Position numbers and translations under genes: made by a program. This document shows, in pieces, positions 1 to 14,704 of a stretch of DNA of 19,407 nt (within the stretch, counting starts at the first letter, position 1; each line of letters starts with the position of its first letter). This stretch comes from Candidatus Kaiserbacteria bacterium CG10_big_fil_rev_8_21_14_0_10_49_17. GTDB taxonomy: Bacteria > Patescibacteriota > Minisyncoccia > Phycocordibacterales > JABMNX01. Location: positions 773-20,179 of the forward strand of contig PFBJ01000019.1 in NCBI GenBank assembly GCA_002778575.1, read 5' to 3'. Under the pieces are notes generated by a model, which ran no database searches, was not told the origin of the DNA, and saw only the letters and a list, made by a program, of their open reading frames with translations.

Positions 1-3
1 TCA

Positions 4-22
4 CCACGCGCGCGGCGCGTGG
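4..22. repeat. GC-rich palindrome CCACGCGC-GCG-GCGCGTGG; the same arms recur at 19373-19389
   Basis: Perfect 8-bp inverted arms around a 3-nt centre, read directly from the sequence. Near-identical element at the other end of the window. Confidence 0.5.
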
Positions 23-83
23 CAGGTCATTCGGGGCTGTTGGTAAAATAGGTTCTGGCGGTGTTTAATAGAGGCACAGATAA

Positions 84-227: not shown

Positions 228-1367
228 ATGCCATCACGCCATCTCGAAGTTACTGAACACCCGAAAGTGTACTGGTGGGTGACCATCGGTTACGCTATCG
301 CGAACGTTCTTATCCTCCTATTCGCACTGTTCTACCTCGCCGACATCCCCATTCAAACATTTATGGGCGCGCAGTGGGACGTGCAAGAGCTGGTTTACTT
401 CCTGCTTGCCTTGTGGTTTGTGCTCTCCTTCGGCTACGTCCGAACGGAGGATATAGCCGCAATGACACTCTTCGGGTCTGGTGTCAAAAACATCTACCAG
501 CCTGGACTGAAGTTTGCAATCTTTGGCCTTCTGAAAATTACTCGATATCCTCGTGGAATTATTCAGGAGCAGTACCCGGATGAACCGGCGTACGTGCAGC
601 ACACCGACGACAAGGAGCCGCTGCAGAAAATTACAGTTGACGGAAAAGAACGGTACATGGTCCGCCCTGTTAGGATCGTTAGTGGCGGACCTAAGAGAAA
701 GGGGGCAGCCTTCGACCCGAGCAAAGAAAACATCCTCGAGTCACAAATGACAATGGATGTTTCCTGGTATACTCGCTACCGTATTGCAAATCCGCTCTGC
801 TTCCTATCCGTCATCGGCACAATCGCCGAGGCACGCAAGCAGATGCGTGACACCAGCCAACGGGTACTTTCAGAAGAGTTCGCGAAGCGGACTCCCGCCC
901 AAATTATTGGCCATCTCGAGGAGATCAATAAGAGGCTCGATAAAGAGACAGCTGAAGCGACCTCCTCCTGGGGAATTGATTTTGATGAGTCATCGGTCTT
1001 TTCTCCAGACCTCAGCCATGACCTTGCTATTGGCTTGCGTAATGTTCCGCTAAGCAAGGCGCAGGCAGTGCAAACGCGGGTAACCGCTGATGCAGAAAGA
1101 TACAGACTGACTGAAGAAGGTCTTGGTACCGCAGCGGCTCGAAAGGCCTACCTAACCGCCGAAGGCGACGGTATGCAAGAGATCGCTAAAAAGCTCGGAG
1201 TTGACGGGGCTGACGTTCTTGCGGCTGAGACAGCCAAGAAAACGGTCGGCGAATCTGATCTGGTACTTGGTGCTGATGGTCTCGCGCAGGCGCTCGGAGG
1301 TCTCATGACCGCCGGTCATGCGTTTAAGCGAGGCAAGGAGAAGAAGGCGGGTTCTGAGGAGTCATGA
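228..1367 (+). CDS. SPFH/band-7 (stomatin/HflK/C-like) membrane protein
   Basis: Two N-terminal hydrophobic segments, then an SPFH-like core (VRTEDIAAMTLFGSGVKNIYQPGLKF...), then an Ala/Glu-rich coiled-coil tail typical of HflK/C and flotillin-like proteins. Good SD. Stop overlaps the next start (ATGA). Confidence 0.7.
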   Translation: MPSRHLEVTEHPKVYWWVTIGYAIANVLILLFALFYLADIPIQTFMGAQWDVQELVYFLLALWFVLSFGYVRTEDIAAMTLFGSGVKNIYQPGLKFAIFGLLKITRYPRGIIQEQYPDEPAYVQHTDDKEPLQKITVDGKERYMVRPVRIVSGGPKRKGAAFDPSKENILESQMTMDVSWYTRYRIANPLCFLSVIGTIAEARKQMRDTSQRVLSEEFAKRTPAQIIGHLEEINKRLDKETAEATSSWGIDFDESSVFSPDLSHDLAIGLRNVPLSKAQAVQTRVTADAERYRLTEEGLGTAAARKAYLTAEGDGMQEIAKKLGVDGADVLAAETAKKTVGESDLVLGADGLAQALGGLMTAGHAFKRGKEKKAGSEES

Positions 1368-2185
1368 CAATGAGTGGCAACACAATCCTGTACGTGATTG
1401 TCGGAGTCATTCTCGTTGCTGCCCTCATAATCACGCAGCTTCGAAAACATCCGACTGCACGTGAAATGGCAAAAGGTGCCGGAAAACTTTTCGTCGCGCC
1501 AATTGTCGCACTGAAGAACGGTTCTGGTGACAGCGCAGGTAAGATTCTCGACACTATCAAGGTGCTGGGGGCAGCTGCTCTTGTCATCGGTGGCGTGATT
1601 TTCGCGCTCTACTACTTTGGTGATGATCGTCTGCGTGCAATCCTTCAGTCCTATCAATATGAAGGTATCACGGGGATTCTCTTCATCACTGCTGGTTTAC
1701 TGGTCTGGCCGGTGAAAAAAGTGGGTAAACCGCTCGGCTTCATTGCCGTCATAACCGGACTTGCATTCCTCGGTACGATTGGAGTCGTCTCAGTAATCAG
1801 TCTCTGGCCGTCTGGGCCGCCTGAAACGGCTCGTTCTACCCCAATACACACCCCTCGCCACGCAACTCGCTCGCAGTGCGATGGGGTCGTTCATTCAGTT
1901 ACGCTTAGCCGTACCAACCAGAACTTTACCTTCGTGTCGGGGAACTGTCGTTTCTTGCACGACTTGGAAATGCCGTCAAATTCGGCGGGCGACTGTGTTC
2001 GCATGAATGGCGTCCTTCAGTGCGGGGCTGGGAGGGAACAACCAATCCGTGTTGTCCCACCCTACCGTGTGCACGTCACTTTGCGTTCAACCTCTACCGG
2101 TTCCGTCACCTACAACTTTATACGGTGCCCGTGGAGAATGCCTCGCGGTGAGTGCTTTGGGAGGCTCATTGCAGGGCGGCGATAA
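1364..2185 (+). CDS. Polytopic membrane protein translationally coupled to the SPFH gene, possibly an NfeD-like partner. The C-terminal ~120 aa have atypical Arg/Cys/Ser/Thr-rich composition
   Basis: ATGA overlap with the upstream gene. About 4 predicted TM helices in the first ~150 aa. The frame stays open to 2185, and an intrinsic terminator follows at 2207-2240. The C-terminal composition is an outlier for this window, so the true end or function is uncertain. Confidence 0.5.
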   Translation: MTMSGNTILYVIVGVILVAALIITQLRKHPTAREMAKGAGKLFVAPIVALKNGSGDSAGKILDTIKVLGAAALVIGGVIFALYYFGDDRLRAILQSYQYEGITGILFITAGLLVWPVKKVGKPLGFIAVITGLAFLGTIGVVSVISLWPSGPPETARSTPIHTPRHATRSQCDGVVHSVTLSRTNQNFTFVSGNCRFLHDLEMPSNSAGDCVRMNGVLQCGAGREQPIRVVPPYRVHVTLRSTSTGSVTYNFIRCPWRMPRGECFGRLIAGRR

Positions 2186-2206
2186 TAACCTTTCAAAACT
2201 CACAAT

Positions 2207-2240
2207 GCTCGTGCGCAAGCCGCACGGGCATTCTTTTTTT
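2207..2240 (+). terminator. Intrinsic terminator: 9-bp stem gctCGTGCG-caagc-CGCACGggc, then ttcttttttt. It sits between the convergent plus gene and the minus-strand pilin-like array
   Basis: Hairpin plus an 8-T tract read directly. An A-run on the other side allows some bidirectional function. Confidence 0.6.
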
Positions 2241-2246
2241 CCAATA

Positions 2247-2495
2247 CTAGAGACTAAATACAGTCGCGCGGATGAAGTAAATAATGCCTTGAACTGAGAC
2301 AATAATGAACATCCCCACAATACCCCAGAGCATATGCCGCTTGCCGGTTGTTCTTCCTTCGTCTTGGTCAGCCTTCCAGATAAATACGGTTAAGCCCCAC
2401 ATGAAGAAGAAAAGGGCCACAGCAAAAAGGAGGTACGCGATCGGGTCAAGGATATTCACCACTATCTTCTCCATTAACTGGGAAGCATAGGACAT
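2247..2495 (-). CDS. Small two-TM membrane protein, paralog A of a tandem pilin-like (TrbC/VirB2-like?) family
   Basis: 82 aa, two hydrophobic helices separated by a charged loop (KADQDEGRTTGKRHMLWGIVGMFIIVSVQG). Shares the I/M-x-W-G...F-x-V-S-x-x-G motif with the three upstream paralogs. Only 5 nt after the previous gene. Confidence 0.6.
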   Translation of the reverse strand: MSYASQLMEKIVVNILDPIAYLLFAVALFFFMWGLTVFIWKADQDEGRTTGKRHMLWGIVGMFIIVSVQGIIYFIRATVFSL

Positions 2496-2500
2496 AGCGG

Positions 2501-2845
2501 CTACTTAATGTTCACTGTCGGAGCGTCAATCGTAGAGTCCTTACTGATGTTGAATGTATCCTGAAGCAGTCGCACCAATCCCCATACGGAGACCATCACG
2601 AAAAGCGCAATAATTCCCCATATCATGATATTGCGACCTTCTTCTTGTTTATCCGCATCTCCGGCTGAGAAGATGTACTTCATCAAGCCCCAGAAGAATG
2701 CCAAGACCGCAAGCGCAAGCACAATCGGAATCGCAGATGAGATGAGCGTTCCGACTGTCTGTAGTACTCCTTGCAGCCCTGTTGCTGCAAATGCAAACGA
2801 AGGAAGCGCAAGAAGTGCTGCAACGGCTAATGTAATTCTCTTCAT
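2501..2845 (-). CDS. Small secreted/two-TM membrane protein, paralog B of the pilin-like family
   Basis: 114 aa. Signal peptide (MKRITLAVAALLALPSFAFA), then hydrophobic segment, loop GDADKQEEGRNIMIWGIIALFVMVSVWGLVRLLQDTF, and a second hydrophobic segment. Same architecture as VirB2/TrbC-type pilins. Confidence 0.65.
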   Translation of the reverse strand: MKRITLAVAALLALPSFAFAATGLQGVLQTVGTLISSAIPIVLALAVLAFFWGLMKYIFSAGDADKQEEGRNIMIWGIIALFVMVSVWGLVRLLQDTFNISKDSTIDAPTVNIK

Positions 2846-2934
2846 TACTTTGAATTGTTTATGAATAACGACCTATTGTGTACATACATGGTAAGCGGAA
2901 CAACCGCCCCCCGCAATAGTCTAATGTGGATTCC

Positions 2935-3174
2935 TCAAAGAAGAAACGTGTTTTGTAAAAGCGTGAGAATGCCCCAGATTGAGACCATAAAGAAAAGAGC
3001 CACGACCCCCCAAATCATAATGTCTTTCGCTGACTTCCGGCTCTCCTCACTTCCAAATGAAAAGCTGTACTTTGCGATGCCGAAAAAGAGCCCGAGCACC
3101 GCTATACCAAGAAGAATCGGAATAGCTATATTTATAAGTTTAACAATACTGCCGACGAGGGTCGCGATGGTCAT
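2935..3174 (-). CDS. Small two-TM membrane protein, paralog C of the pilin-like family
   Basis: 79 aa. AKDIMIWGVVALFFMVSIWGILTLLQNTF is nearly identical in pattern to paralog B. 1-nt gap to the upstream gene. Confidence 0.65.
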   Translation of the reverse strand: MTIATLVGSIVKLINIAIPILLGIAVLGLFFGIAKYSFSFGSEESRKSAKDIMIWGVVALFFMVSIWGILTLLQNTFLL

Positions 3175-3175
3175 A

Positions 3176-3550
3176 TTATCGTATGCTCTTTATTGTTGTA
3201 TCTATCAATTCAGCAATTACCTTAGCGCCTATAAATACAGCGATGCCCACCAACGTCCACAGAAAGGTACTTTTTGCATTCTTGAGTTTTTCTTCACTTC
3301 CTTGTGCGGTGACAAACAGAAAACCAGCGTAAATGATAAAAAGTGCGGCAATTGGAAGTCCAATTACGATAATCGCATCGAGGAGGACATTAATAAATTG
3401 CGGAATGGTGGAAACGCCACTGAGCGGATTCTGCAATCCTCCTCCGGGACTTCCGCCAGTAACGTTTTCTGTCGCGGCTCCCGCTAAGAATGGCACGAGA
3501 AGTACGAGGCTTGACCCCGCTGTAATAGCAATACTGCGAAATAACTTCAT
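3176..3550 (-). CDS. Small secreted/two-TM membrane protein, paralog D of the pilin-like family. Start trimmed to the internal ATG at 3550
   Basis: The signal-peptide-like N-terminus MKLFRSIAITAGSSLVLLVPFLAGAA begins at the ATG at 3550, which also avoids overlap with the upstream SBP gene. Gly-rich loop, then two hydrophobic helices. Confidence 0.6.
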   Translation of the reverse strand: MKLFRSIAITAGSSLVLLVPFLAGAATENVTGGSPGGGLQNPLSGVSTIPQFINVLLDAIIVIGLPIAALFIIYAGFLFVTAQGSEEKLKNAKSTFLWTLVGIAVFIGAKVIAELIDTTIKSIR

Positions 3551-3560
3551 ACCCCTAATC

Positions 3561-4871
3561 TTACCGCTCAAGTAAACTATTGAGAAGCGCCGAACCTTCA
3601 CTAATGGCCTCCGAGATGCGGAATCTGCCTGATGTCACGGATTCAATCATCCCCCGAAAGAGCGCCTCGGTTTCAACTGGGTCCGGATCACGGAAATTAC
3701 GCGCTGCAATTGCCGCATTGTAAAAGACCGTATCAAACGGATCGTCAGTGGAGCGGGAAAGTATATCGCGTCGCGGTGAAGGAAGGCCGGTCAATTCTGA
3801 AAAGAGAATACTCCCCTCTTCCGCCACCATAAGCGCGATGAGTTGGAGTGCTCCATCCGGATTACTGGAGCCTTTTGGAATTGCAAGACCTGTCATTCGC
3901 CCATACGAGACAACACTGGCATCGCGGGCCTGCGGGGCTAATGCGACATCAAAGTTTAAATTCGGATTCTGAGCGCGAATGCTCTGTATTTCACTTGCAA
4001 AACCAAGGTACATTGCAAGTTTCCCTCCGATAAATGCGGCGCGTGCTTCAGGAAGCGCGCGATTCCACGTATACACTGTCTTTGACGGATTTGAGAAGTC
4101 AGTGTAGAAACGCAGCGCCGTGACCGCCGGCGCTTCGGTGTTAGCAAAATCGTTACGATCCAAGTCCGAGGTGTGCCGTCCACTCGTATCGGTTGCCACA
4201 ATGGAAGAACCCGCCTGCATCATTAGTAGCGCGAGAATCTCTTTTGCGTGCGCAATATTTTGATACTCACCGAGTGCGATTGTGCTTTGGAATATGTTGC
4301 TTGCGGCATCTCGCGTTGTGAGGCGCTCGCTTGCAAGCACCTGCACCTCGTCCCAGTACCGAGGAGCGCGCGCCACACCCGAACCAGAAAAGATCGAACG
4401 ATTCCAGTACAGCACCATCGGATCAATGCTTATTGGGAATGCCAGAACCCCCGCGTCAGTTAAAAAAAGTTCTCCTTCCTCGATAAAAGTATCTTTGTAG
4501 TCCCGCTCAGAGAGGAAATCGTACGAAGCAGGGAGAAGTTTGTCACGGTGCTTGTGCGCAAGTGCTTGGTTTAGGAAAAACACATCCGGTCCACGTTGCG
4601 CCGCGAGCGCCTCAATGAGGTCCTGCTCGTAGGTGCGTGGATTCTTCTCAACGTACTCAACCGAATCCAAAAGCTCAGTATTATCACCAGCAAGTGCGCT
4701 GAAGTAGTCGAGCATTGCTGTCTTTGAGTATGTCCCCCACACTGTTACTTGGCCAACCTGCACCGTATCTCTGCCTAAACCACCGACTCCCGCAAATACA
4801 AGCACTCCGATGACTCCCATAACAGAGAAGAACCCTATGACACCGACTTGAAAAATACTGAGCTTTTTCAT
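3561..4871 (-). CDS. Extracellular solute-binding protein, ABC-transporter family-1 (MalE-like) fold, membrane-anchored
   Basis: N-terminal TM anchor. Pattern matches the N-lobe of periplasmic sugar-binding proteins (VTVWG...GPDVFF...A...). 436 aa. No permease or ATPase genes adjacent in the window. Confidence 0.65.
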   Translation of the reverse strand: MKKLSIFQVGVIGFFSVMGVIGVLVFAGVGGLGRDTVQVGQVTVWGTYSKTAMLDYFSALAGDNTELLDSVEYVEKNPRTYEQDLIEALAAQRGPDVFFLNQALAHKHRDKLLPASYDFLSERDYKDTFIEEGELFLTDAGVLAFPISIDPMVLYWNRSIFSGSGVARAPRYWDEVQVLASERLTTRDAASNIFQSTIALGEYQNIAHAKEILALLMMQAGSSIVATDTSGRHTSDLDRNDFANTEAPAVTALRFYTDFSNPSKTVYTWNRALPEARAAFIGGKLAMYLGFASEIQSIRAQNPNLNFDVALAPQARDASVVSYGRMTGLAIPKGSSNPDGALQLIALMVAEEGSILFSELTGLPSPRRDILSRSTDDPFDTVFYNAAIAARNFRDPDPVETEALFRGMIESVTSGRFRISEAISEGSALLNSLLER

Positions 4872-5395
4872 TTCTCTAACACTATACCGTAATGATGCGC
4901 GCCAGGCTCGAACTCCTCAACAACAGAAAGACCCGCGTGGGTAAAGAGCTCACGCGCGCTTTTTTTGCTCACGACTGCATCAGGCGCCGGTCCGAGTCCT
5001 TTGAATGAATCACTCCAGTCAATAAGAAGGAGTTTCCCTTCTTTTTTGAGCACTCGGTAAATTTCGAGTGCCGCCTCCGCCGGTTTCTCGAGCTGAAAGA
5101 GCGTATTAGAGAGAATAAGAGCGTCAATTGAGTCACTTTCAATATTCGAGCCTCCCGGCTCATCGATATCGCCCCATAGTATTTCTACCTGCTCTAGCCC
5201 TGCCGATTGTGCCTCATTTTTTATCTTGCGAAGCAGTTCTCGGTCAATATCAACCGCAATAACCAGTCCGCGCGAGCCGACACGCTCTGCCACTAAGAAT
5301 GTGTACGCGCCGGAGCCGGCACCGAAATCAGCTACGCGCATTCCTTCACGCACCGTAAGTGCTCGGATTGCTTTTTCCGGTTCTACAAATGCCAT
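4868..5395 (-). CDS. Class I SAM-dependent methyltransferase
   Basis: Motif I VADFGAGSGAYT and motif post-I VIAVDID. 175 aa. ATGA overlap with the downstream SBP gene. Confidence 0.8.
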   Translation of the reverse strand: MAFVEPEKAIRALTVREGMRVADFGAGSGAYTFLVAERVGSRGLVIAVDIDRELLRKIKNEAQSAGLEQVEILWGDIDEPGGSNIESDSIDALILSNTLFQLEKPAEAALEIYRVLKKEGKLLLIDWSDSFKGLGPAPDAVVSKKSARELFTHAGLSVVEEFEPGAHHYGIVLEK

Positions 5396-5454: not shown

Positions 5455-7923
5455 CTACACACAGATAAATGAAGCAATCTTGTCTCCCGCTCGCAATTTC
5501 ATTACGCGCACACCTTGTGTCTGCCTGCCGAGCGTCGGAATCTCATTTTGGTCAATCCGTATCACTTGCCCTTTCTGTGAAATAGCGACAAGCTCTCCTT
5601 CTTCTTTCGCATCAACGACAGCCGCGGTAATAAGATCTCCTGTCTTTGCAGAGACATTAGCGGTTTTAATACCGGAGCCGCCTCTCTTTTGGACTTTGTA
5701 TTCCGAAAGCGGCGTTTTCTTTCCGTAGCCAGTCTCTGAAAGCACCATGAGTTCTGGCTTTTGCATTGTGGTGCTTCGAGCCACTCCTGCGCCGATAATG
5801 TTATCCCCTTTTGAGAGCTTTATCGCGCGAACCCCCGCGGCAGAACGCCCCATCGCACGTACATCTTTTTCATTAAAGCGTATTGACTGGCCTTTTGCGG
5901 TAACAATCGAAACAGTATCCTTCTCTCCAACAAAATGCGTGCTAATAAGCTCGTCTCCGGTAGCAAGTTTTATCGCAATAAGTCCGCTGCGGCGCACCTC
6001 TTGGAAACTTGTCGCGTCCACTTTTTTTACAACTCCTTCTTTCGTCACCATCATTAAGTGCCACTCCCCTTTCTTGTAGGTAGAACTGATCGGCAAAACA
6101 GAAGTAACCCGCTCATTTTGGTCAAGCGAAATGAAATTCATTATTGATTTACCCTTTGTCGCGCGGCGACCCTCCGGCAACTCATACATTTTCATTTGGT
6201 ACGCCTTGCCACGGTCAGTAAAGAACAGGAGGTCGCTGTGTGTTGAGGCCGTCAGCATTGTGGTGACGAAGTCTTCCTCTTTCGTATTGAGGTCTATAAC
6301 ACCCACACCGCCGCGCTTCTGCTTCCGAAACTCATCAGGACTCGTGCGTTTAATGTAGCCGCCTTTTGTGAGCACCATGACACTCTCCTCGTCTGGCACC
6401 AGATCTTCAAGGGAAAGCGACTTTACTGGCTGCGTAACAATTTTTGTACGCCGCTCATCGCCAAATTTCTCAGCGACGGCTACGAGCTCATCGCGCACAA
6501 CGCCAAGAATTTTCTTCTCACTTGCAAGGAGCGTCTTGAGTGCTTTGATAAGCGCTTGAATGTCTTTTAATTCATCTTCAATCTTTTTCCGCTCAAGTCC
6601 CGCAAGCTTTTGCAATCGCATTTCAAGAATTGCGGTCGCCTGGATCTCGGAAAATGCAAACTGCTTCATCAGTGCGGCATGCGCGCTTGATACGTCCAAA
6701 GCCTTCTTAATCAACTTGATAATCTCATCGATGTGATCGAGCGCTTTCTTAAGCCCGAGAAGAATGTGTTCGCGCGCTTCTGCTTTCGCAAGATCGAAAC
6801 GAGCACGACGGGTGATGACTTCGACACGGTGCTTTATAAACGCCTCAAGCACACTCTTTAAAGAAAGGGTCTGCGGTACCCCATCAACGAGCGCCACCAT
6901 ATTGTAGTGAAAGGTTTCCTCGAGTTGCGTGTGCTTGTAGAGGTAATTGAGGATATTTTGCGGATGTCCTGAACCTTTGAGGTCTATTACCACTCGGATG
7001 TCATCGGTCGATTCATCTCGAATGTCTTTAATGCCGTCAATCTTTTTGTCCCGAACGAGGTCCGCGATTTTTATCAAAAGTTCTGCTTTATTTACACGAA
7101 ACGGGATGGACGTAATAATAATGTGCGCGGCTCCTTTCTTATCTTCTGTTATCTCTGCAACCCCACGCACAACAACACCACCGCGCCCTGTGGCATACGC
7201 TTGCTCGATATCTTTCTTATTAAATGCAATACCACCCACGGGAAAATCAGGGCCGTGCACGAACTGAAGCAAATCATCAGTAGTCGCCTTGGGGTTTTCA
7301 ATCAAGTGCACTGTGGCATCGCACACTTCACGGAGATTGTGGGGCGGAATATTGGTAGCCATTCCAACCGCAATACCGAGCGTGCCGTTTAGCAGTAACT
7401 GTGGAACCGCCGCGGGAAGCACTGCAGGCTCAAGCTTTGTCGCATCGTAATTTGGTTTAAAATCAACCGTATCTTTTTCAATGTCACGAAGAAGCTCACC
7501 GGAGAGCTTGTCCATTTTCGCTTCAGTGTAGCGCATCGCGGCAGGCGGGTCGCCGTCAATGGAGCCGAAGTTCCCTTGCCCGTCAACAAGCGTGTAGCGT
7601 GTATTAAAATCCTGCGCCAGCTTTGCGAGCGCGTCGTAAATTGCACTGTCTCCGTGCGGGTGGTATTTACCCATCACATCTCCGACGACTGCCGCCGACT
7701 TTCGGTAACGGGCATTTGATGAGAGCCCCATCTGGTGCATGGTGTAGAGAATGCGTCGGTGTACCGGCTTAAGCCCGTCACGCACATCAGGAAGCGCGCG
7801 GCTCGTAATAACCGACATCGCATAGTCAAGGTATGACTCTTTCATTTCAGAGCTAATGCTCTGCTCTACGACACGTGCGCCCGCTTGCTTTGCGGGCTCT
7901 TTTTCGCTCTCTTTTTTAGCCAT
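5455..7923 (-). CDS. gyrA: DNA gyrase subunit A
   Basis: [34 protein letters not shown]-region motif, active-site [10 protein letters not shown], GyrA-box-like C-terminal beta-pinwheel repeats. 822 aa. Confidence 0.97.
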
Positions 7924-9299: not shown

Positions 9300-9307
9300 G
9301 CACTTTT

Positions 9308-9337
9308 AATCAACTTAGTCATATGACTAAGTTGATT
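9308..9337. promoter_or_regulatory. Perfect 30-bp AT-rich palindrome aatcaacttagtcat|atgactaagttgatt, a candidate dimeric-protein operator
   Basis: 15/15 perfect inverted repeat centred on CATATG. Lies between the terminator of the first RNA and the promoter of the second. Confidence 0.45.
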
Positions 9338-9395
9338 CGGTCACCTACCAAAATTGGCTCTCTTTATGGAGTATTTTTGAAGTAGTAAAAGGTAC

Positions 9396-9423
9396 TTGAC
9401 AAATTTTATATATATGATAGTAT
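9396..9423 (+). promoter_or_regulatory. Sigma70-like promoter TTGACA-N16-TAGTAT, preceded by an AT-rich UP-like region
   Basis: TTGACA at 9396-9401, TAGTAT at 9418-9423. TSS about 9430. Confidence 0.55.
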
Positions 9424-9429
9424 TTTACT

Positions 9430-9767
9430 ACCCTGCGGAGAACGGCACGCCTAAATGGTGCTCCGTCGCCCGAGGGTATAGTGCCGGTTCGCATTGCCGG
9501 CGAATAATAAATTAAAATGAGGACCGCACGTTATGGGTACGTGTATGGAACTCGATGAGGGGCTGAGGGAGCCCACAGACTGACACATGATCTTTATGTC
9601 GCCCCGCAACGGCGACGCCGCATTGAGGGAAAAAGGGCGAGCCTCTGAATTCCGGTATGCCTTAAAGCTACACGCTTTAGGATGTACGGCATACACGCCA
9701 CCGCCGAGCGCCCCTCGAAACGCATAGGCGAGATCAAAGAGCCCAAATCTTGGGCTCTTTTCTTTTT
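9430..9767 (+). ncRNA. Second unidentified structured RNA of about 340 nt. Alternatively a long structured leader/attenuator of rpsA
   Basis: GC-rich. Only tiny ORFs. Begins after its own promoter and ends at a strong terminator 140 nt upstream of the rpsA ATG. Several local hairpins, e.g. GCCGG-uucgcauug-CCGGC at 9486-9504. Confidence 0.45.
9737..9767 (+). terminator. Intrinsic terminator: 10-bp stem AAGAGCCCAA-atc-TTGGGCTCTT, then ttctttttg
   Basis: Read directly. Confidence 0.75.
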
Positions 9768-9789
9768 GTATATATTTTGTATAGTGCAT

Positions 9790-9807
9790 ATGCTCCGTAC
9801 GGAGCAT
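9790..9807. promoter_or_regulatory. Perfect 18-bp palindrome atgctccgtacggagcat immediately after a TATAGT -10-like box (9780-9785), in the rpsA upstream region. A second hairpin atctgc-caaaaa-gcagat lies at 9819-9836
   Basis: Read directly. Could be an operator, an RNA hairpin in the rpsA 5'UTR, or both. Confidence 0.4.
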
Positions 9808-9908
9808 TTATTAACCACATCTGCCAAAAAGCAGATACGGTACGGGCTAACACTGCACTTGCTACAGCTACGAGAAATACATGCAGAACCCGACCGCTTT
9901 TTCTATTT

Positions 9909-11045
9909 ATGGACACAGATAAAACGAAAGAAAGAGAAGAAACAGTAGAGACCACCGAGGAGGAAGTTTCAAAAAAGAAACGGGAGTCATTCCTTGGGAC
10001 CCTACTTGAAAGTGGACCGACTCCCCCATCTGAGGGCGACCTCGTCGAGGGGCCGGTTATTGCTATCGAGCGCTCACGCGTCTACATCGATCTGCCGCCA
10101 TTCGGCACCGGTATTATTTACGGCAAGGAATTTATGAGTGCGCGCGATATTCTCCGAAAGGTGAATGTCGGTGACACTATTGCCGCTAAAGTCATCGACA
10201 CTGAGAACGAAGACGGCTACATTGAGGTCTCGCTTAAAGAAGCGCGCCAGGCGCTTATCTGGGCTGAAGCCGAAGATGTAATGAGCAACAAAAAGACCCT
10301 TGAACTTCCCGTGAAGGAAGCGAACAAGGGCGGTCTTATTATTGAATGGCAAGGTATTCAGGGGTTTCTCCCAGCGTCACAGCTCGGCCCTGAGCACTAC
10401 CCGCGTGTCGAGGACGGTGACAAAGACCGTATTCTTGATGAATTGAAAAAACTTGTCGGAGAAAAACTCTCCCTCTCAATCATTACTGCAGATCCAAAAG
10501 AGAACAAACTTATTTTCTCCGAAAAGGGGGCAGACCAAAAAGAGCGCGCTGAAATGATAGACCGGTACAGCATCGGTGACGAACTTGTAGGAGAGGTGAC
10601 CGGCGCGGTTGACTTTGGCATCTTCGTAAAACTGCAGGAAGGGCTCGAAGGGCTTGTGCATATATCTGAAATTGACTGGGCGCTTGTTGAGGATCCTCGT
10701 TCGCTCTACCGTGTTGGAGATACGGTGAAAGTGAAAATTATTGAGATAAAGGACGGCAAAATTTCACTTTCCATTAAAGCGCTCCGTGAAAATCCATGGA
10801 AGAGCGCGTCGGAGAAATACAAGAAAGATGCACGAGTGAAAGGAGTTATCATCAAGTACAACAAGCACGGCGCACTTGCCTCAATCGAAGAAGGTGTTGC
10901 GGGGCTTGTGCACATCTCTGAATTTGAAGACGAGCAGGAATTGCGCAACACACTTGAACTTGGGCGTACCTACGACTTCGTGATTACTCTTTTTGAGCCG
11001 GATGAACAGCGCATGACGCTTTCATACAAACAGGCACAAGAATAG
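9909..11045 (+). CDS. rpsA: 30S ribosomal protein S1, short four-S1-domain form
   Basis: Repeated S1/OB motifs (GDLVEGPVIAIERSRVYIDL..., GDTVKVKIIEIKDGKISLSIKA, GVIIKYNKHGALASIEEGVAGLVHISEF). Acidic N-terminus. Start taken at the first ATG (9909) after the upstream terminator and promoter; the ORF-track start at 9750 is a TTG inside the terminator. Confidence 0.75.
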   Translation: MDTDKTKEREETVETTEEEVSKKKRESFLGTLLESGPTPPSEGDLVEGPVIAIERSRVYIDLPPFGTGIIYGKEFMSARDILRKVNVGDTIAAKVIDTENEDGYIEVSLKEARQALIWAEAEDVMSNKKTLELPVKEANKGGLIIEWQGIQGFLPASQLGPEHYPRVEDGDKDRILDELKKLVGEKLSLSIITADPKENKLIFSEKGADQKERAEMIDRYSIGDELVGEVTGAVDFGIFVKLQEGLEGLVHISEIDWALVEDPRSLYRVGDTVKVKIIEIKDGKISLSIKALRENPWKSASEKYKKDARVKGVIIKYNKHGALASIEEGVAGLVHISEFEDEQELRNTLELGRTYDFVITLFEPDEQRMTLSYKQAQE

Positions 11046-11061
11046 ACTACCAACCTAAAAA

Positions 11062-11097
11062 AAGAGAAGCCGCCACGCTGTGGCGGCTTCTCTTTTT
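11062..11097 (+). terminator. Intrinsic terminator after rpsA: 14-bp stem agagaagccgccac-gct-gtggcggcttctct, then TTTTTT
   Basis: Read directly. Confidence 0.8.
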
Positions 11098-11149
11098 TAT
11101 AAATCTCTGTTAGCGTCTTTTCAGGCAAGCATGAGAAGAGAGGTGTGAG

Positions 11150-11602
11150 ATGGTCCACGCAATAATCGCTGGGAGTACCCAGTTTCACTGGCCAACAATG
11201 GAGGAGTGCACAAGCCCTCTTTCCGCGGCCGAAGAACAGGAAATTCTTGAACGAATACACTGCTACCGGCGCATCAATGATATAAGCAAAAAACGCATTG
11301 CTGCACTTTTTGAAAAAACTGAGGCAATGACGGTTCAGGCAGAAGTGCTCTTTGAAAGCCCTCTGCCGCAGTACGAACAGCACGAACTTGAGGCGATTGA
11401 AGAGTTTGCCCGTAAGTGGCTTAACCCGCACCTTATTGCAATACGAGCACCATTCGTGTTGTGGGTACACACCGAAGGCTTGTTGCGCTGCTGGATTCAC
11501 GAAACGCGTGCCTACCGGTATGTAAATTTTATCGGCTTCATCGCACCTCTCGGTATCTCTGACAAAGAATCACTTACCCTTCTGGGATGGCCCTCCACAT
11601 GA
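11150..11602 (+). CDS. Hypothetical protein, 150 aa, no recognisable domain
   Basis: SD AGAGGTG 6 nt upstream of the ATG. The stop codon lies in the loop of the terminator hairpin at 11589-11613. Protein-like composition. Confidence 0.5.
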   Translation: MVHAIIAGSTQFHWPTMEECTSPLSAAEEQEILERIHCYRRINDISKKRIAALFEKTEAMTVQAEVLFESPLPQYEQHELEAIEEFARKWLNPHLIAIRAPFVLWVHTEGLLRCWIHETRAYRYVNFIGFIAPLGISDKESLTLLGWPST

Positions 11603-11613
11603 GGGCCTTTTTT
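11589..11613 (+). terminator. Intrinsic terminator GGCCCTC-cacat-GAGGGCC, then TTTTTT. Shared region with the convergent pth gene
   Basis: Read directly. TGA of the upstream ORF sits in the loop. Confidence 0.6.
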
Positions 11614-11632
11614 ATGCTCTACTTTATTTTAC

Positions 11633-12223
11633 TTAATTAAACTGATTCATTGCATTCATCCTTCCCTCTTTTATGAGCGCCGCGATCGCATCACTTGCGG
11701 TCTTTGTAATGCCGCTCAGTTTCTTTTTCTCAGTTGGTGTGAACGGCTTGAGTATAAAATCGAGGACTTTGTGCTCGCCTTTTGGTTTTTTCACCTTTCC
11801 TGCGGCTGTCCTCGGCGAGATACCGATACGCAGCCGTACGAAATCTTTACTCTTCACTGCTTTCATAATGCTCTCGACGCCTCTGTGGCCTCCGGATGAG
11901 CGTCCGAATGAAATTTTCATGCTCCCGAATCCGATATCAAGCTCGTCGTAAACGACAATGAGTCGCTGTGCGGCCTTCGCGCTCTTTACATACGCCCCGA
12001 CACTCTTTCCTGACGCATTCATAAACGTCTCCGGCAAGAGAAGGACAACAGAGTGCCCACCGATCTTCCCTTTTGAAACAAGTGCGTCGCTTTTTTTCTC
12101 ATACTCCCATTCTGAAAAGTCGTACTGCTTTGCGAATTGCTCGAGCACCATGCGCCCGGCATTGTGCCGTGTGTCCGCGTATTCCTCTCCGGGGTTTCCA
12201 AGTCCCACCACTACACATGTCAT
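11633..12223 (-). CDS. pth: Peptidyl-tRNA hydrolase
   Basis: N-terminal VVGLGNPGEEYADTRHNAG and active-site His region typical of bacterial Pth. 196 aa. Confidence 0.93.
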   Translation of the reverse strand: MTCVVVGLGNPGEEYADTRHNAGRMVLEQFAKQYDFSEWEYEKKSDALVSKGKIGGHSVVLLLPETFMNASGKSVGAYVKSAKAAQRLIVVYDELDIGFGSMKISFGRSSGGHRGVESIMKAVKSKDFVRLRIGISPRTAAGKVKKPKGEHKVLDFILKPFTPTEKKKLSGITKTASDAIAALIKEGRMNAMNQFN

Positions 12224-12274
12224 GCAGAAAGTGTACTACAAAACAAAAATAATGTGCATGACACGCACTTTCGT

Positions 12275-12303
12275 ATTGTGTCAATGCGGCACTTCAAGTA
12301 CAA
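12275..12303 (+). promoter_or_regulatory. Promoter TTGTGT-N17-TACAAT for lepB. The ATG is 10 nt after the -10, implying a leaderless or near-leaderless mRNA
   Basis: Read directly. No SD before the ATG at 12314. Confidence 0.45.
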
Positions 12304-12313
12304 TTCTTCCAAT

Positions 12314-12889
12314 ATGGACACTCCCATTGAGCGTAATGAGAATTTTTTCGTTGAAATTCTGAAATTTTCTCTCATTGCGCTCCTTATTGTTGTTCCAATC
12401 CGTTTTTTTATAGCCCAACCATTCGTTGTCTCCGGCGCGTCCATGTCTCCTGCTTTTGAGGACGGTGAGTACCTTGTTATTGACCAGCTTTCGTACCGCT
12501 TTAATGAACCGCAGCGCGGAGATGTTGTTATTTTTCGCTACCCGCGCGACCCGCGAACCTACTTTATCAAGCGCATCGTCGGCCTTCCCGGAGAGAGTCT
12601 TGAAATGAGCGGGAAAACCCTCTACGTGCGAAATGATGAGAATCCAGATGGGTTTGCTCTCAGCGAGCCGTACATTGCAAAGGAAAATGAACAAGGTAAT
12701 TTTTTCTCTGTTACCTTAGCTGATGATGAGTACTTTGTCCTCGGGGATAACCGTGCCGCAAGTTCCGATTCGCGGGTGTGGGGGCCGCTCAATGAACAGT
12801 ACCTTATCGGCCGTTCCTTCCTGCGCCTTATTCCGCTTACACACATCGGTATCCTGCCCGGCGATTACCGTAACGCCTACACACAATGA
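12314..12889 (+). CDS. lepB: Signal peptidase I
   Basis: N-terminal TM anchor, catalytic Ser box SGASMSPAF, Lys box region, and GDNRAASSDSRVWGPL box E. Start trimmed to the ATG at 12314 (MDTPIERN...); the longer ORF would run through the pth divergent region. Confidence 0.85.
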   Translation: MDTPIERNENFFVEILKFSLIALLIVVPIRFFIAQPFVVSGASMSPAFEDGEYLVIDQLSYRFNEPQRGDVVIFRYPRDPRTYFIKRIVGLPGESLEMSGKTLYVRNDENPDGFALSEPYIAKENEQGNFFSVTLADDEYFVLGDNRAASSDSRVWGPLNEQYLIGRSFLRLIPLTHIGILPGDYRNAYTQ

Positions 12890-14037
12890 TTCTGCTTGGT
12901 AACAATATGAAAAGCTCCGATGAGTACGTGCGACAGGCTATTGCTGTTGCCCGGTACTACGGTTTTCTCCCTGTTGAAGCAGTGCTCCCGACATGTAAAT
13001 TGACACGCCGTCTTCCGGCACCGATTCCATCGAGCGAGAAAGCAGATAAAGAGTTCGCCGCAATTATGTATTCCTATATTGAAAACGGGTACGCGAAACT
13101 CTCCCAGCCGTCACTCCTTTACCATTACACTGAAAATCCGGACTCCATTTCTTTTGGCCTCCAGGTGCTCGGGTCAGGCAAAAGTATTGCCGAGGCAATT
13201 TTACTTAAGACGGCACTTGCCATTCTCGCTGAAACGAACACACCTAAAACCTGTGTGTACATAAACGGCATTGGCGACAGAGACTCAATGCAGCGTTTCT
13301 CGCGAGACCTCACCGCTTACTTACGGAAAAATATTGAAGACATCCCTTCGCACGCTCGTCAGCTCATGAAAAAAGACCCTATTGCAGCATACCGCGACAT
13401 GCTCCGCAAGCGGCACGACATCGCGCTGCGCGCGCCAAACACAATTCAATTTTTAACTGAAGCAAGTCGAAGCCATTTACGTGAAGTACTGGAGTATCTC
13501 GAGGTCGCGGGCGTCCCGTACGAGCTTGATACGAATCTCGTCGGCTACCAAGACTGCCACACGCGCACATTCTTTGAGGTCCGCGAGCAGAATGAGAATG
13601 AAGACGATGAGCAAACGATTTTTGCCCGCGGCGGACGCTTTGACGAACTGGGGAAACGTTCCTTTAAGACTGAAGTACCTGCAGTAAATGTCACTTTGAC
13701 TATTGAAAAGAAAGGGCGCATGAGTAAGAAATCCCTTGAACCGAAGCAGCAGCGAAAACCAAAAGTGTGTTTTATTCAGCTTGGTTTTGATGCGAAACTG
13801 CGGGCGCTTAATGTGATTGAGGAGCTCCGTCTCTCGAAAGTTCCAGTCTACCAAGCACTTGGGCACGAGCGGCTCACCGACCAGCTCGCGCTTGCTGAAG
13901 AGATGCACATTCCCTACGCAGTCATTATGGGGCAGAAAGAGGCGCTCGAAAACGCAGTTATCGTCCGCAACCTCGACACTCGCTCCCAGCAGACGGTTCC
14001 AATCACCATGCTGCCGCAGCACCTCAAGGCCCTCTAA
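12886..14037 (+). CDS. Histidyl-tRNA synthetase-like protein with degenerate catalytic core; anticodon-binding domain retained
   Basis: Matches HisRS in the motif-1 region (YYGFLPVEAVLP), FGLQ...insertion domain, motif 3 GGRFD and a clear class-IIa C-terminal anticodon-binding domain (KVCFIQLGFDAKL...AVIMGQKEALENAVIVRNLDTRSQQTV). The segment that should hold the histidine-binding loop (LRPEGT) and motif-2 arginines (FRHERPQKGRYRQF) is about 30 aa shorter and non-conserved (KLSQPSLLYHYTENPDS). ATGA overlap with lepB. Confidence 0.65.
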   Translation: MILLGNNMKSSDEYVRQAIAVARYYGFLPVEAVLPTCKLTRRLPAPIPSSEKADKEFAAIMYSYIENGYAKLSQPSLLYHYTENPDSISFGLQVLGSGKSIAEAILLKTALAILAETNTPKTCVYINGIGDRDSMQRFSRDLTAYLRKNIEDIPSHARQLMKKDPIAAYRDMLRKRHDIALRAPNTIQFLTEASRSHLREVLEYLEVAGVPYELDTNLVGYQDCHTRTFFEVREQNENEDDEQTIFARGGRFDELGKRSFKTEVPAVNVTLTIEKKGRMSKKSLEPKQQRKPKVCFIQLGFDAKLRALNVIEELRLSKVPVYQALGHERLTDQLALAEEMHIPYAVIMGQKEALENAVIVRNLDTRSQQTVPITMLPQHLKAL

Positions 14038-14038
14038 C

Positions 14039-14067
14039 TTGCCATAGGAGACTCTCTATGCTATGGT
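14039..14067 (+). promoter_or_regulatory. Promoter TTGCCA-N17-TATGGT with the rpsU ATG 8 nt downstream (leaderless arrangement)
   Basis: Read directly. No SD. Confidence 0.4.
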
Positions 14068-14075
14068 GACCCGCA

Positions 14076-14321
14076 ATGATTAATATAGAAGTAGAAAAAG
14101 GAGGCACCGAAAATACGCAAAGCTTGATGCGTCGTTTTTCAAAGCGCATGCAAGGCTCGCGCATTATGCCTCGCATGCGTAAAATTCGCTTCTATTCCCG
14201 ACCTGCGTCTCCGGCGCTTAAAAAGCGCCAAGCGCTTCGAAAGCTCGAGCGTCGAGCAGAATACGAGAAACAACTAAAACTAGGTAAGGTTGTCGAAGGG
14301 CGCCGCGGGTCCCGTCGCTAA
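14076..14321 (+). CDS. rpsU: 30S ribosomal protein S21
   Basis: 81 aa, very basic, FSKRMQ...RKIRFYSRPS...KKR pattern characteristic of bS21. Confidence 0.8.
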   Translation: MINIEVEKGGTENTQSLMRRFSKRMQGSRIMPRMRKIRFYSRPASPALKKRQALRKLERRAEYEKQLKLGKVVEGRRGSRR

Positions 14322-14704
14322 TGGCAGAACTCTCCATTCGAAACACCACTCGGCAGTCGCTTCCGCGGCTGCCGTTTGCGCGCATGAAGGATTCGGTACT
14401 CGGGAAGACGTACGACCTTTCACTCGTATTCATTGGAGCGACGCGCGCTCGCCGACTCAATGTAGAGACACGAGGCAAAGACTATGTTCCTACTGTACTC
14501 TCATTTCCTCTCTCAAAGGAGAGCGGAGAAATTTTTATCTGTCTTTCAAAAGCACTTCAAGAGGCGCCCGCATACGGAAAAACACCGAGTCAGTTTATTG
14601 GATACCTCTTTATCCACGGACTGTTGCATTTGGACGGGCTCACACACGGTAGTACAATGGACAAATCGGAGCAGATGTTGTCGAAGAAGTTCGATTTGAA
14701 TTAA
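14321..14704 (+). CDS. ybeY: Endoribonuclease YbeY (rRNA maturation factor)
   Basis: Zinc-binding motif HGLLHLDGLTH (H-x3-H-x5-H) and VLSFPL motif. 1-nt TAATG overlap with rpsU. Confidence 0.85.
   Translation: MAELSIRNTTRQSLPRLPFARMKDSVLGKTYDLSLVFIGATRARRLNVETRGKDYVPTVLSFPLSKESGEIFICLSKALQEAPAYGKTPSQFIGYLFIHGLLHLDGLTHGSTMDKSEQMLSKKFDLN

What the first reader, a model, noticed from the sequence alone, without database searches (positions are those of the whole stretch)
2247..3550. Tandem array of four paralogous small two-helix secreted membrane proteins (pilin-like), downstream of an SBP and methyltransferase in the gyrA transcription unit
Four consecutive genes of 79-124 aa (after start trimming) are separated by 1, 89 and 5 nt (and 10 nt from the upstream SBP gene). 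Each has an N-terminal hydrophobic or signal segment, a short charged loop and a second helix carrying the shared motif (K/R)xI(M/F)xWG(I/V)xALFxMVSxWG. This architecture is that of TrbC/VirB2-type conjugative pilins. Arrays of such genes are a known feature of CPR/episymbiont genomes, but no VirB4/VirB6/VirD4 genes are nearby. They sit instead with a membrane-anchored solute-binding protein and a SAM methyltransferase. Diversified tandem paralogs suggest surface-exposed, possibly host-interaction or antigenically variable functions.
Basis: partly seen in the sequence, partly recalled or inferred. Interest (0 to 1): 0.6.

Follow-up and report, generated by a model that had tools for sequence, protein, structure and literature searches.

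The report
VirB2-like pilin gene array in Kaiserbacteria
Four adjacent small genes in an ultra-small (CPR/Patescibacteria) bacterium encode relatives of the conjugative-pilus subunit VirB2, a known kind of gene array in these bacteria, but here it always sits directly behind a sugar-binding-type protein gene in the gyrA operon, a link that seems not to have been described.

Summary
Four minus-strand genes (3550-3176, 3174-2935, 2845-2501, 2495-2247) have exactly the stated spacings. All four match Pfam PF18895 (T4SS_pilin) above the curated cut-off, so the VirB2/TrbC-like reading is supported.

Such arrays are already published for Patescibacteria: 441 arrays of 2-11 pilins, about 25% identity between paralogues, and an essential array in Southlakia. 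This one is therefore a new member of a known kind.

New here:
- The order gyrA, methyltransferase, membrane-anchored MalE-like SBP, pilin array is conserved in all 79 related loci that have enough downstream sequence (of 83 holding the SBP), while synteny breaks right after the last pilin.
- The arrays have a fixed design. A P1-type gene with a signal peptide is first, a short P4-type gene without one is last, and 1-5 variable genes lie between.
- Orthologues are about 42-45% identical across species, like the neighbouring SBP. This is an old, ordered set of paralogues rather than a fast antigenic cassette.
- Two of the four window proteins (P2, P4) lack a signal peptide.

No VirB4, VirB6 or VirD4 gene lies within about 27 kb. 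Whether this genome has a T4SS could not be tested directly.

The parts
3176..3550 (-). P1, pilin-family gene 1 (124 aa): signal peptide (AGA|AT), Gly/Pro-rich linker, two hydrophobic helices. It belongs to the 'constant first gene' type (cluster C0).
   Evidence: PF18895 40.4 bits; TrbC 22.2 bits, below the cut-off. Hydropathy. C0 occupies position 1 in 63/63 arrays.
2935..3174 (-). P2, pilin-family gene 2 (79 aa): two helices, no signal peptide. It is a variable middle type (cluster C2), N-terminally shorter than most of its orthologues.
   Evidence: PF18895 34.4 bits. Hydropathy. Cluster C2 has a median length of 114 aa, and 17/21 members have three hydrophobic segments. 54% identical to P3.
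2846..2934 (-). 89-nt spacer between P2 and P3, with no significant structure or promoter match.
   Evidence: RNA fold z = +0.53. No promoter-like site in the gap.
2501..2845 (-). P3, pilin-family gene 3 (114 aa): signal peptide (AFA|AT), a helical hairpin and a short polar C-terminal tail. It is a variable middle type (cluster C12).
   Evidence: PF18895 46.2 bits. AF2 pLDDT 81 with helices 2-18, 24-60 and 64-97. P15 and A20 are invariant in 77 homologues.
2247..2495 (-). P4, pilin-family gene 4 (82 aa, or 75 aa from the ATG at 2474): two helices, no signal peptide. It belongs to the 'constant last gene' type (cluster C1).
   Evidence: PF18895 37.7 bits. C1 is the last gene in 56/58 arrays, and 56/58 members have two hydrophobic segments.
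2204..2232 (.). GC-rich hairpin between the convergent genes, a likely bidirectional terminator that closes the operon.
   Evidence: 12-bp stem followed by a T-run on the + strand. Minus-strand RNA fold -20.3 kcal/mol, z = -2.5.
3561..4871 (-). Membrane-anchored MalE-like solute-binding protein (436 aa), always immediately upstream of the array in relatives.
   Evidence: SBP_bac_8 and SBP_bac_1. AF2 pLDDT 89.7 with a TM helix at 6-29. Foldseek hits to sugar-binding SBPs, E 7e-24. 79/79 loci with enough downstream sequence have pilins downstream.
4868..5395 (-). Class I SAM methyltransferase (175 aa); its stop overlaps the SBP start by 4 nt. Present in most relatives but not all.
   Evidence: Methyltransf_31/11/25. 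Missing in 7 loci that keep gyrA-SBP-pilins.
5455..7923 (-). gyrA, the upstream same-strand gene of the conserved block and probably the same transcription unit.
   Evidence: DNA_topoisoIV and DNA_gyraseA_C. Upstream of the SBP in nearly all loci.

Best explanation
The four genes encode VirB2/TrbC-like pilin-family subunits (Pfam PF18895) of the type IV secretion system that most Patescibacteria carry. They are encoded away from the virB4 locus, at the end of a housekeeping operon: gyrA, methyltransferase, SBP, pilins.

Shown here:
- Family membership of all four proteins.
- The helical-hairpin architecture.
- Signal peptides with a conserved A-x-A site on P1 and P3 only.
- A conserved array design: P1-type first, P4-type last, variable middle genes.
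- Invariable adjacency to an orphan MalE-like SBP.

Inferred by homology with VirB2/TraA and from the Southlakia Tn-seq result:
- The proteins are inserted into the membrane by Sec/YidC, and P1 and P3 are trimmed by signal peptidase I.
- Both termini lie outside the cell and the short charged loop lies inside.
- A VirB4-driven machine encoded elsewhere extracts them from the membrane and assembles them into a pilus or short conduit that contacts the host cell.
- The conserved end members act as structural or initiating subunits, and the variable middle members are the exposed, host-adapted ones.

The role of the SBP is unknown. It may capture host-derived saccharide at the contact site or otherwise work with the pilins.
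For: - Family: PF18895 is above its cut-off for all four proteins. Of 149 array homologues, 146 match PF18895 and 29 match TrbC/VirB2. All listed hits among P3's 430 homologues are PF18895, and NCBI names some of them 'pilin'.
- Structure: the AF2 hairpin is confident. The signal-peptidase site is conserved, with P15 and A20 invariant.
- Context: the block is conserved in 79/79 informative loci. The array shows positional orthology.
- Fusions: in relatives the pilin module is fused behind secreted passenger domains. These are a subtilase, a 2,170-aa Ig/cadherin/PKD protein, SLT and other transglycosylase-like domains, and VanY. This fits an extracytoplasmic, cell-wall- or host-directed role.
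- Literature: the pilin array is essential in Southlakia (PMC10633639). VirB4 is in 2,417/3,035 Patescibacteria assemblies, and pilins lie away from virB4 in about 40% of them (PMC12102498).
- Co-occurrence: four of five draft relatives that carry this block are listed as VirB4-positive in that paper's Table S1.
Against: - No VirB4, VirB6 or VirD4 gene lies in the window, in 7.5 kb beyond it, in any of about 90 loci of up to 21 kb, or in 30 kb around the block in a complete 617-kb chromosome.
- The MAG that probably supplied the window (Kaiserbacteria CG10..._49_17; the assignment rests on GC content only) is listed as VirB4-negative in PMC12102498 Table S1. So is one other relative with the block. 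Both are draft assemblies.
- No pilus has ever been seen for this family.
- TrbC itself is below its cut-off for the window proteins.
Confidence: 0.6

Rival explanations
1. The proteins are VirB2 homologues that no longer form a pilus. They act as membrane-resident T4SS channel or platform subunits, or simply as two-helix membrane anchors for surface proteins, which suits a monoderm envelope.
For: - Gram-positive-type (MPF-FATA) T4SSs, from which the patescibacterial system derives, normally have no pilus (PMC12102498, PMC12857230).
- P2 and P4 lack signal peptides, like the 80-residue Mycoplasma ICE pilin-like family (NF045849; E 1e-5 to 1e-6, sub-threshold).
- In relatives the module sits at the C-terminus of large secreted proteins, where it would serve equally well as an anchor.
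Against: A plain anchor does not explain why 4-8 free-standing small paralogues with a fixed order are kept in about 60 species. Reviewers of the field favour pilus formation as the reason the array is essential in Southlakia (PMC12857230), though that too is unproven.
Confidence: 0.2
2. The SBP and the small two-helix proteins form a T4SS-independent module, for example a new solute-capture or uptake device or a surface complex. In that case the PF18895 similarity reflects ancestry only.
For: - SBP-to-pilin adjacency is universal (79/79; median gap 4 nt), while synteny ends right after the array, with 30 different downstream gene families in 61 loci.
- No ABC permease or importer ATPase appears in the four loci with precomputed Pfam annotation.
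- The block is present in two draft genomes scored VirB4-negative.
- The SBP has a confident MalE-like fold.
Against: - gyrA is linked almost as tightly, so conserved order alone does not prove shared function.
- Two-helix hairpins of about 80 residues are unlike any known importer membrane domain.
- The VirB4-negative genomes are incomplete drafts, and the baseline VirB4 detection rate is only 80%.
- Fusions of the pilin module to SLT-like wall hydrolases (a VirB1-type activity) point to T4SS-type biology.
Confidence: 0.12
3. They are unrelated small membrane proteins (holins, bacteriocin-immunity or phage-exclusion proteins) that match the pilin HMM only through hydrophobic composition.
For: There are weak sub-threshold hits of P3 to SieB (E 0.004) and of the others to assorted membrane families. 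Short hydrophobic proteins are prone to spurious matches.
Against: - All four exceed the curated PF18895 cut-off by 8-20 bits, with near full-length profile coverage.
- Specific conserved motifs (WG...GKxxMxWGxIGxFxMxS) recur across 149 homologues.
- There are no PHROG hits apart from one family of unknown function at E 0.0018.
- The locus has a housekeeping, non-mobile context.
Confidence: 0.02

Closest known systems
Patescibacterial VirB2-like pilin arrays (Southlakia epibionticum ML1 T4SS cluster SEML1_0006-0019; 441 arrays catalogued by Quinonero-Coronel et al. 2025, PMC12102498)
   Same: Tandem PF18895/TrbC-like genes. Paralogues have low identity (published mean 25%, maximum 54%; here 23-54%). 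The genes are chromosomal, with no relaxase nearby.
   Different: In Southlakia the six pilins lie inside the T4SS cluster near dnaA. Here the array is detached from any T4SS gene, ends the gyrA operon and always follows an orphan SBP. The constant-ends, variable-middle design and the SBP link were not reported in the papers I could search.
Canonical conjugative pilins VirB2 (Ti plasmid), TrbC (RP4) and TraA (F); Pfam PF04956
   Same: Small proteins with a signal peptide plus a hairpin of two hydrophobic helices and a short charged loop. P1 and 29/149 array homologues match PF04956 at E < 1e-3.
   Different: Those are single genes inside a diderm T4SS operon. The window proteins are below the PF04956 cut-off, P2 and P4 have no signal peptide, and no processing enzyme (TraF or TraX type) is evident.
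Mycoplasma ICE pilin-like protein family Mbov_0395 / MMCAP2_0565 (NCBIfam NF045849)
   Same: An approximately 80-residue two-helix protein of a monoderm T4SS. All four window proteins align over nearly the whole profile.
   Different: Scores of 24-28 bits are below the curated cut-off of 40. That family is a single gene on a mobile element.
virB2 paralogue arrays of Bartonella and Anaplasma
   Same: Tandem, diverged VirB2 copies, proposed to vary the exposed surface.
   Different: Those are diderm pathogens of eukaryotes, and the variation is thought to be recent and immune-driven. Here the first and last paralogues are ancient and keep their positions.
MalE/CUT1-type ABC substrate-binding proteins (for the neighbouring gene)
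   Same: The SBP has a confident type-II SBP fold, and its best structural matches are sugar-binding proteins (5ci5, 2zyo, 1eu8).
   Different: It has an N-terminal transmembrane anchor. No permease or ATPase partner lies nearby, and it is always coupled to pilin genes.

Membership tests
Pfam PF18895 T4SS_pilin | HMM score at or above the gathering cut-off (26.6 bits) | tested here: met
   P1 40.4, P2 34.4, P3 46.2 and P4 37.7 bits. The same family is precomputed on the public contigs.
Patescibacterial VirB2 pilin array (PMC12102498) | Two to eleven pilin genes in tandem, or separated by one gene, with highly diverged paralogues | tested here: met
   Four tandem genes with gaps of 1, 89 and 5 nt. 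Pairwise identity is 23-54%, against a published mean of 25% and maximum of 54%.
TrbC/VirB2 (Pfam PF04956) | HMM score at or above the gathering cut-off (27.9 bits) | tested here: not met
   Only P1 matches, at 22.2 bits and E 1.6e-4. At family level, 29 of 149 homologous array proteins match at E < 1e-3, best 5e-9. Homology is therefore likely, but strict membership of the window proteins is not shown.
TrbC/VirB2-type conjugative pilin | Cleavable N-terminal signal peptide followed by two hydrophobic helices joined by a short charged loop | tested here: inconclusive
   All four have the two-helix hairpin. P1 and P3 have a signal peptide with a conserved A-x-A site. P2 and P4 have none. SignalP and TMHMM were not available, so this rests on hydropathy and AF2 only.
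TrbC/VirB2-type conjugative pilin | Encoded with, or at least in the same genome as, a VirB4 ATPase and VirB6 channel protein | tested here: inconclusive
   There is none within the window plus 7.5 kb, nor in any held locus. The whole genome could not be searched. A published table lists VirB4 in 4 of 5 drafts with the block, but not in the probable source MAG.
TrbC/VirB2-type conjugative pilin | Polymerises, with phospholipid, into an extracellular filament | not testable with these tools
Type IV pilus (T4P) pilins | Class III signal peptide / N_methyl motif (PF07963) | tested here: not met
   No N_methyl or T4P pilin family appears among the Pfam or NCBIfam hits. The signal peptides are the ordinary A-x-A type.
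Holins / bacteriocin immunity / superinfection exclusion | Significant HMM match to such a family | tested here: not met
   There is only a sub-threshold SieB hit for P3 (17 bits against a cut-off of 26). PHROGs gives nothing apart from one family of unknown function at E 0.0018.
ABC importer (for the SBP) | SBP fold together with an adjacent permease and ATPase | tested here: not met
   The fold criterion is met. No BPD_transp or ABC_tran importer genes lie within 10 kb in four annotated loci.

The most novel reading that the evidence does not exclude
The orphan, membrane-anchored MalE-like SBP is a dedicated functional partner of the VirB2-like array. Together they would form a Paceibacteria-wide 'SBP + ordered pilin set' module, with a constant first and last subunit and a variable middle. 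It would act either as a ligand- or host-glycan-sensing accessory of the T4SS contact structure, or as a T4SS-independent surface device that survives in genomes without virB4.
Probability: 0.25. Interest if true: 0.65.

Novelty: new member of a known kind. Interest (0 to 1): 0.4.

Why it matters
Patescibacteria make up a large part of uncultured bacterial diversity, and how they live on their hosts is largely unknown. In the one genetically tractable species, the T4SS and its pilin array are essential for epibiotic growth.

This locus shows that a whole class (Paceibacteria, more than 590 matched stretches in species-representative genomes) keeps an ordered pilin set in a housekeeping operon. 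It is welded to a sugar-binding-type protein and lies away from the secretion ATPase.

That gives concrete hypotheses to test: which subunits are structural and which are host-adapted, and whether the SBP works with the pilus. It also gives a simple genomic marker (gyrA-SBP-pilins) for comparative work. It does not change the current picture of what these proteins are.

Tried and rejected
- A profile search of the P3 family against PDB sequences found nothing significant.
- AFDB50 was not available.
- I tried to find VirB4 in the same genomes. I scanned all ORFs of 400 aa or more in about 90 loci; the Walker-A candidates turned out to be SMC, an ABC exporter and ClpB. I also spent the last homologue search on an isolated 278-aa pilin-domain gene near ClpB, hoping it marked a T4SS cluster. 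It did not.
- I could not prove which CG10 Kaiserbacteria MAG the window comes from, because names are truncated in the outputs and the protein accessions are absent from the paper's stored tables.
- I did not attempt dN/dS among paralogues or orthologues. At 23-54% and about 43% amino-acid identity, synonymous sites are saturated. The only close relative (80% nucleotide identity) has contigs that stop at the start of P1.
- DnaA boxes are not enriched in the window, so the idea that the locus sits at the replication origin is unsupported.
- The promoter scan was not above chance.
Full report
**Observation**

The minus strand of the window carries, in order:
- gyrA (7923..5455)
- a 175-aa SAM methyltransferase (5395..4868)
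- a 436-aa solute-binding protein (4871..3561, overlapping the methyltransferase stop by 4 nt)
- four small genes: P1 3550..3176 (124 aa), P2 3174..2935 (79 aa), P3 2845..2501 (114 aa) and P4 2495..2247 (82 aa)

A GC-rich hairpin at 2204-2232 lies between P4 and the convergent gene and looks like a bidirectional terminator. The 89-nt gap has no significant structure or promoter match.

The same DNA was assembled independently in six public contigs, so this is not an assembly artefact. [quoted passage not shown]' MAG with locus tags COU17_03415-03430.

**Anatomy of the proteins**

Hydropathy shows three hydrophobic segments in P1 and P3 and two in P2 and P4.
- In P1 and P3 the first segment is a classical signal peptide: MKLFRS...FLAGA|AT in P1 and MKRITL...SFAFA|AT in P3.
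- In an alignment of 77 P3 homologues, P15 and A20 (the -1 residue of the cleavage site) are invariant. This fits a conserved signal-peptidase I site.
- AlphaFold2 on that alignment gives a confident model (pLDDT 81). It has a signal helix at 2-18 and a hairpin of two long helices at 24-60 and 64-97, with a three-residue turn in the charged loop.
- P2 and P4 begin directly with the first hairpin helix.

It is strong only in P2 and P3, which are 54% identical. The other pairs are 23-33% identical.

**Family**

- All four proteins match Pfam PF18895 (T4SS_pilin) above the curated cut-off, over nearly the whole 71-position profile.
- P1 also matches TrbC/VirB2 (PF04956) at E 1.6e-4, below the cut-off.
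- All four match the Mycoplasma ICE 'pilin-like conjugal transfer protein' family NF045849 at E 1e-5 to 1e-6, below the cut-off.
- I scanned 149 proteins from this and homologous arrays. Of these, 146 match PF18895 and 29 also match TrbC/VirB2, best E 5e-9. This ties the group to canonical conjugative pilins by sequence.
- No holin, immunity or T4P-pilin family matches.

**What is already known**

Quinonero-Coronel et al. 2025 (PMC12102498) searched 3,035 Patescibacteria genomes with exactly these two Pfam models. They report:
- VirB4 in 2,417 assemblies.
- VirB2-like pilins in 1,948 VirB4-positive assemblies, near virB4 in only 1,135 of them.
- 441 arrays of 2-11 pilin genes, with mean paralogue identity of 25% and a maximum of 54%.

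Wang et al. 2023 (PMC10633639) showed by Tn-seq that the pilin genes inside the T4SS cluster of Southlakia epibionticum are essential for growth on its host. A 2025 review treats a pilus-forming monoderm T4SS as an open, exciting possibility (PMC12857230).

The finding is therefore a further example of a published kind of locus. Its distance from virB4 is not unusual either.

**What the context adds**

The three diverged relatives I looked up by their P3 orthologue all show the same order: Lactamase_B_3, a small gene, gyrA, methyltransferase, SBP, then 4-6 pilins.

I then anchored on the SBP. A scan of one genome per GTDB species matched at least 590 stretches, and I analysed the best 80 loci. 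I built an HMM from the pilins and called ORFs in all loci.
- Of 83 loci with the SBP, 79 have pilin genes downstream on the same strand, with a median gap of 4 nt.
- The other four contigs end within 563 nt of the SBP stop.
- One locus has a HicAB-like pair inserted between the SBP and the first pilin, but keeps the array.
- gyrA is upstream in nearly all loci, usually about 3.0-3.5 kb upstream of the SBP start and sometimes 4-6 kb.
- The methyltransferase is missing in seven loci.
- Immediately after the last pilin, synteny dissolves. The first large downstream ORF falls into 30 unrelated families in 61 loci.

The SBP itself is a diverged family-1 SBP, with 69 bits to the mannobiose-binding protein 4r9f. 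Its model is confident (pLDDT 89.7): an N-terminal transmembrane helix, a disordered linker and a MalE-like body. The best structural matches are sugar-binding SBPs (5ci5, 2zyo, 1eu8). No ABC permease or importer ATPase lies within 10 kb in the four loci with precomputed annotation.

**Design of the arrays**

I clustered the pilins of 63 complete arrays.
- One family, C0 (P1-type, signal peptide plus hairpin), is at position 1 in 63/63 arrays and also at position 2 in 42.
- One family, C1 (P4-type, about 90 aa, no signal peptide), is the last gene in 56/58.
- The 1-5 genes in between fall into 36 small clusters with varying copy number. The window's P2 and P3 are among these.
- Array sizes are mostly 4-7 genes.
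- The best hit of P3 is the second-to-last gene in 49/62 loci. The best hit of P4 is the last gene in 47/61.

Median identity of the window proteins to their orthologues is 42-45% for the four pilins, 43% for the SBP and the methyltransferase, and 67% for GyrA. The paralogues are therefore old and ordered, and they evolve no faster than their neighbours. This argues against a rapidly switching antigenic cassette for the end members, while diversification of the middle slots remains plausible.

The window's P2 is shorter than most members of its cluster, which usually carry a signal peptide.

**Hints about function from relatives**

In some arrays the pilin hairpin is the C-terminal module of a larger secreted protein:
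- a 541-aa subtilase fusion (L050)
- 284-aa and 377-aa proteins (L073, L084)
- a 2,170-aa protein full of Ig, cadherin and PKD domains (L073)

Homologues of an isolated 278-aa pilin-domain protein include fusions to SLT (PF01464), transglycosylase-like (PF06737) and VanY domains, which are VirB1-type wall-hydrolase activities. In the array fusions checked the passenger lies N-terminal to the hairpin, and two of them show a weak N-terminal signal-like match. This implies that the N-terminus of the mature pilin module is extracytoplasmic, and it fits surface, wall or host-directed biology.

**T4SS elsewhere?**

No VirB4-, VirB6- or VirD4-like gene is found in any of the following:
- the window
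- the 7.5 kb beyond its left end on the 53-kb ENA contig
- any of the roughly 90 loci held
- 30 kb around the block in the closed chromosome OZ244961.1

I could not search whole genomes. From Table S1 of PMC12102498, four draft genomes that carry the block are VirB4-positive: Campbellbacteria RIFCSPLOWO2_02_35_12, Kaiserbacteria RIFCSPLOWO2_01_FULL_51_21, Zambryskibacteria RIFOXYC1_FULL_39_10 and, probably, Kaiserbacteria RIFCSPHIGHO2_02_FULL_49_16. One is negative, Kaiserbacteria RIFCSPLOWO2_01_FULL_54_13.

The MAG 'CG10..._49_17' is the likeliest source of the window, which has 49.6% GC, but this is not proven. It is also listed as negative. Given draft assemblies and an 80% baseline, this does not distinguish the hypotheses.

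**Conclusion**

Family membership (PF18895, VirB2-like) is secure. The most likely function is as subunits of the patescibacterial T4SS surface structure. I give this about 0.6, because the link to a T4SS in this genome is inferred and not shown.

A non-polymerising membrane role (0.2) and a T4SS-independent SBP-linked role (0.12) remain open.

As a kind of locus it is already known. The universal coupling to an orphan MalE-like SBP in the gyrA operon, and the constant-ends, variable-middle architecture, appear to be undescribed in the literature I could search. They are the parts worth following up.

Noticed in passing
window 2334, 2392, 2394 (within P4); locus L003: A second sample's contig (ERZ27293414) differs from the window by only three SNPs in 3,553 bp, and all three are in P4: G34 synonymous, L35 to stop (TTA to TGA) and H54Q. 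P4 therefore seems to be a hotspot of strain-level variation and is truncated in part of the population. The chance that all three fall in this gene is about 3e-4, or about 5e-3 if the two adjacent SNPs count as one event.
   Followed up: partly
L090 and L091 (sibling strain; align to window 8863-3491): A co-occurring sibling strain is 80% identical in DNA, and its SBP is 92% identical in protein. In two independent assemblies its contigs both end about 50-70 nt into the P1 orthologue. Something at the start of its pilin array, possibly population heterogeneity, stops assembly.
   Followed up: partly
L050:4722-6347; L073:9747-16259; L073:8105-8959; L084:11327-12460; proteins P0245, P0248, P0256, P0261-P0264: The PF18895 hairpin occurs as a module of larger proteins. 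In the array fusions it is the C-terminal module: behind a subtilase, and behind a 2,170-aa Ig/cadherin/PKD protein. Other homologues combine it with SLT, transglycosylase-like and VanY wall-hydrolase domains (order not determined).
   Followed up: partly
L013:1878-2482: A HicB/HicA-like toxin-antitoxin pair is inserted between the SBP and the first pilin. This is the only interruption of that junction seen in 79 loci. I identified the pair by reading the sequence; it was not checked with an HMM.
   Followed up: no
L092:10001-10837 and L093:10001-10834: Relatives carry an additional isolated 277-278-aa pilin-domain gene just after clpB, about 9 kb downstream of the array, again with no T4SS genes around it.
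   Followed up: yes
L028:2297-5116 (minus strand): A 939-aa ORF in a Patescibacteria MAG matches the eukaryote-type major vault protein domains MVP_shoulder (E 2e-22), Vault_3 and Vault.
   Followed up: no
window 9300-14500: Gene orientation diverges at about 9.3-9.7 kb, and the cumulative GC skew reaches its minimum at about 13.5-14.5 kb. This could mark a replication origin, and published work places T4SS genes near origins. However, there is no dnaA gene and DnaA boxes are not enriched (5 found against 3.25 expected).
   Followed up: partly
window 1-78; L001:17040-17117; ends of L002-L004: The first 78 nt of the window recur at 90% identity about 4 kb beyond the window on the longer contig. 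Contigs L002 and L004 end at window positions 75 and 50. L003 departs from the window at position 75 and continues into different DNA carrying an HNH endonuclease gene. This looks like a repeat or strain-variable junction.
   Followed up: no
window 228-2185 (+ strand): Convergent with the array are an SPFH/Band_7 protein (379 aa) and a 273-aa membrane protein with no family match. The SPFH protein follows the array in only 10 of 61 related loci, so it is not part of the conserved block.
   Followed up: partly
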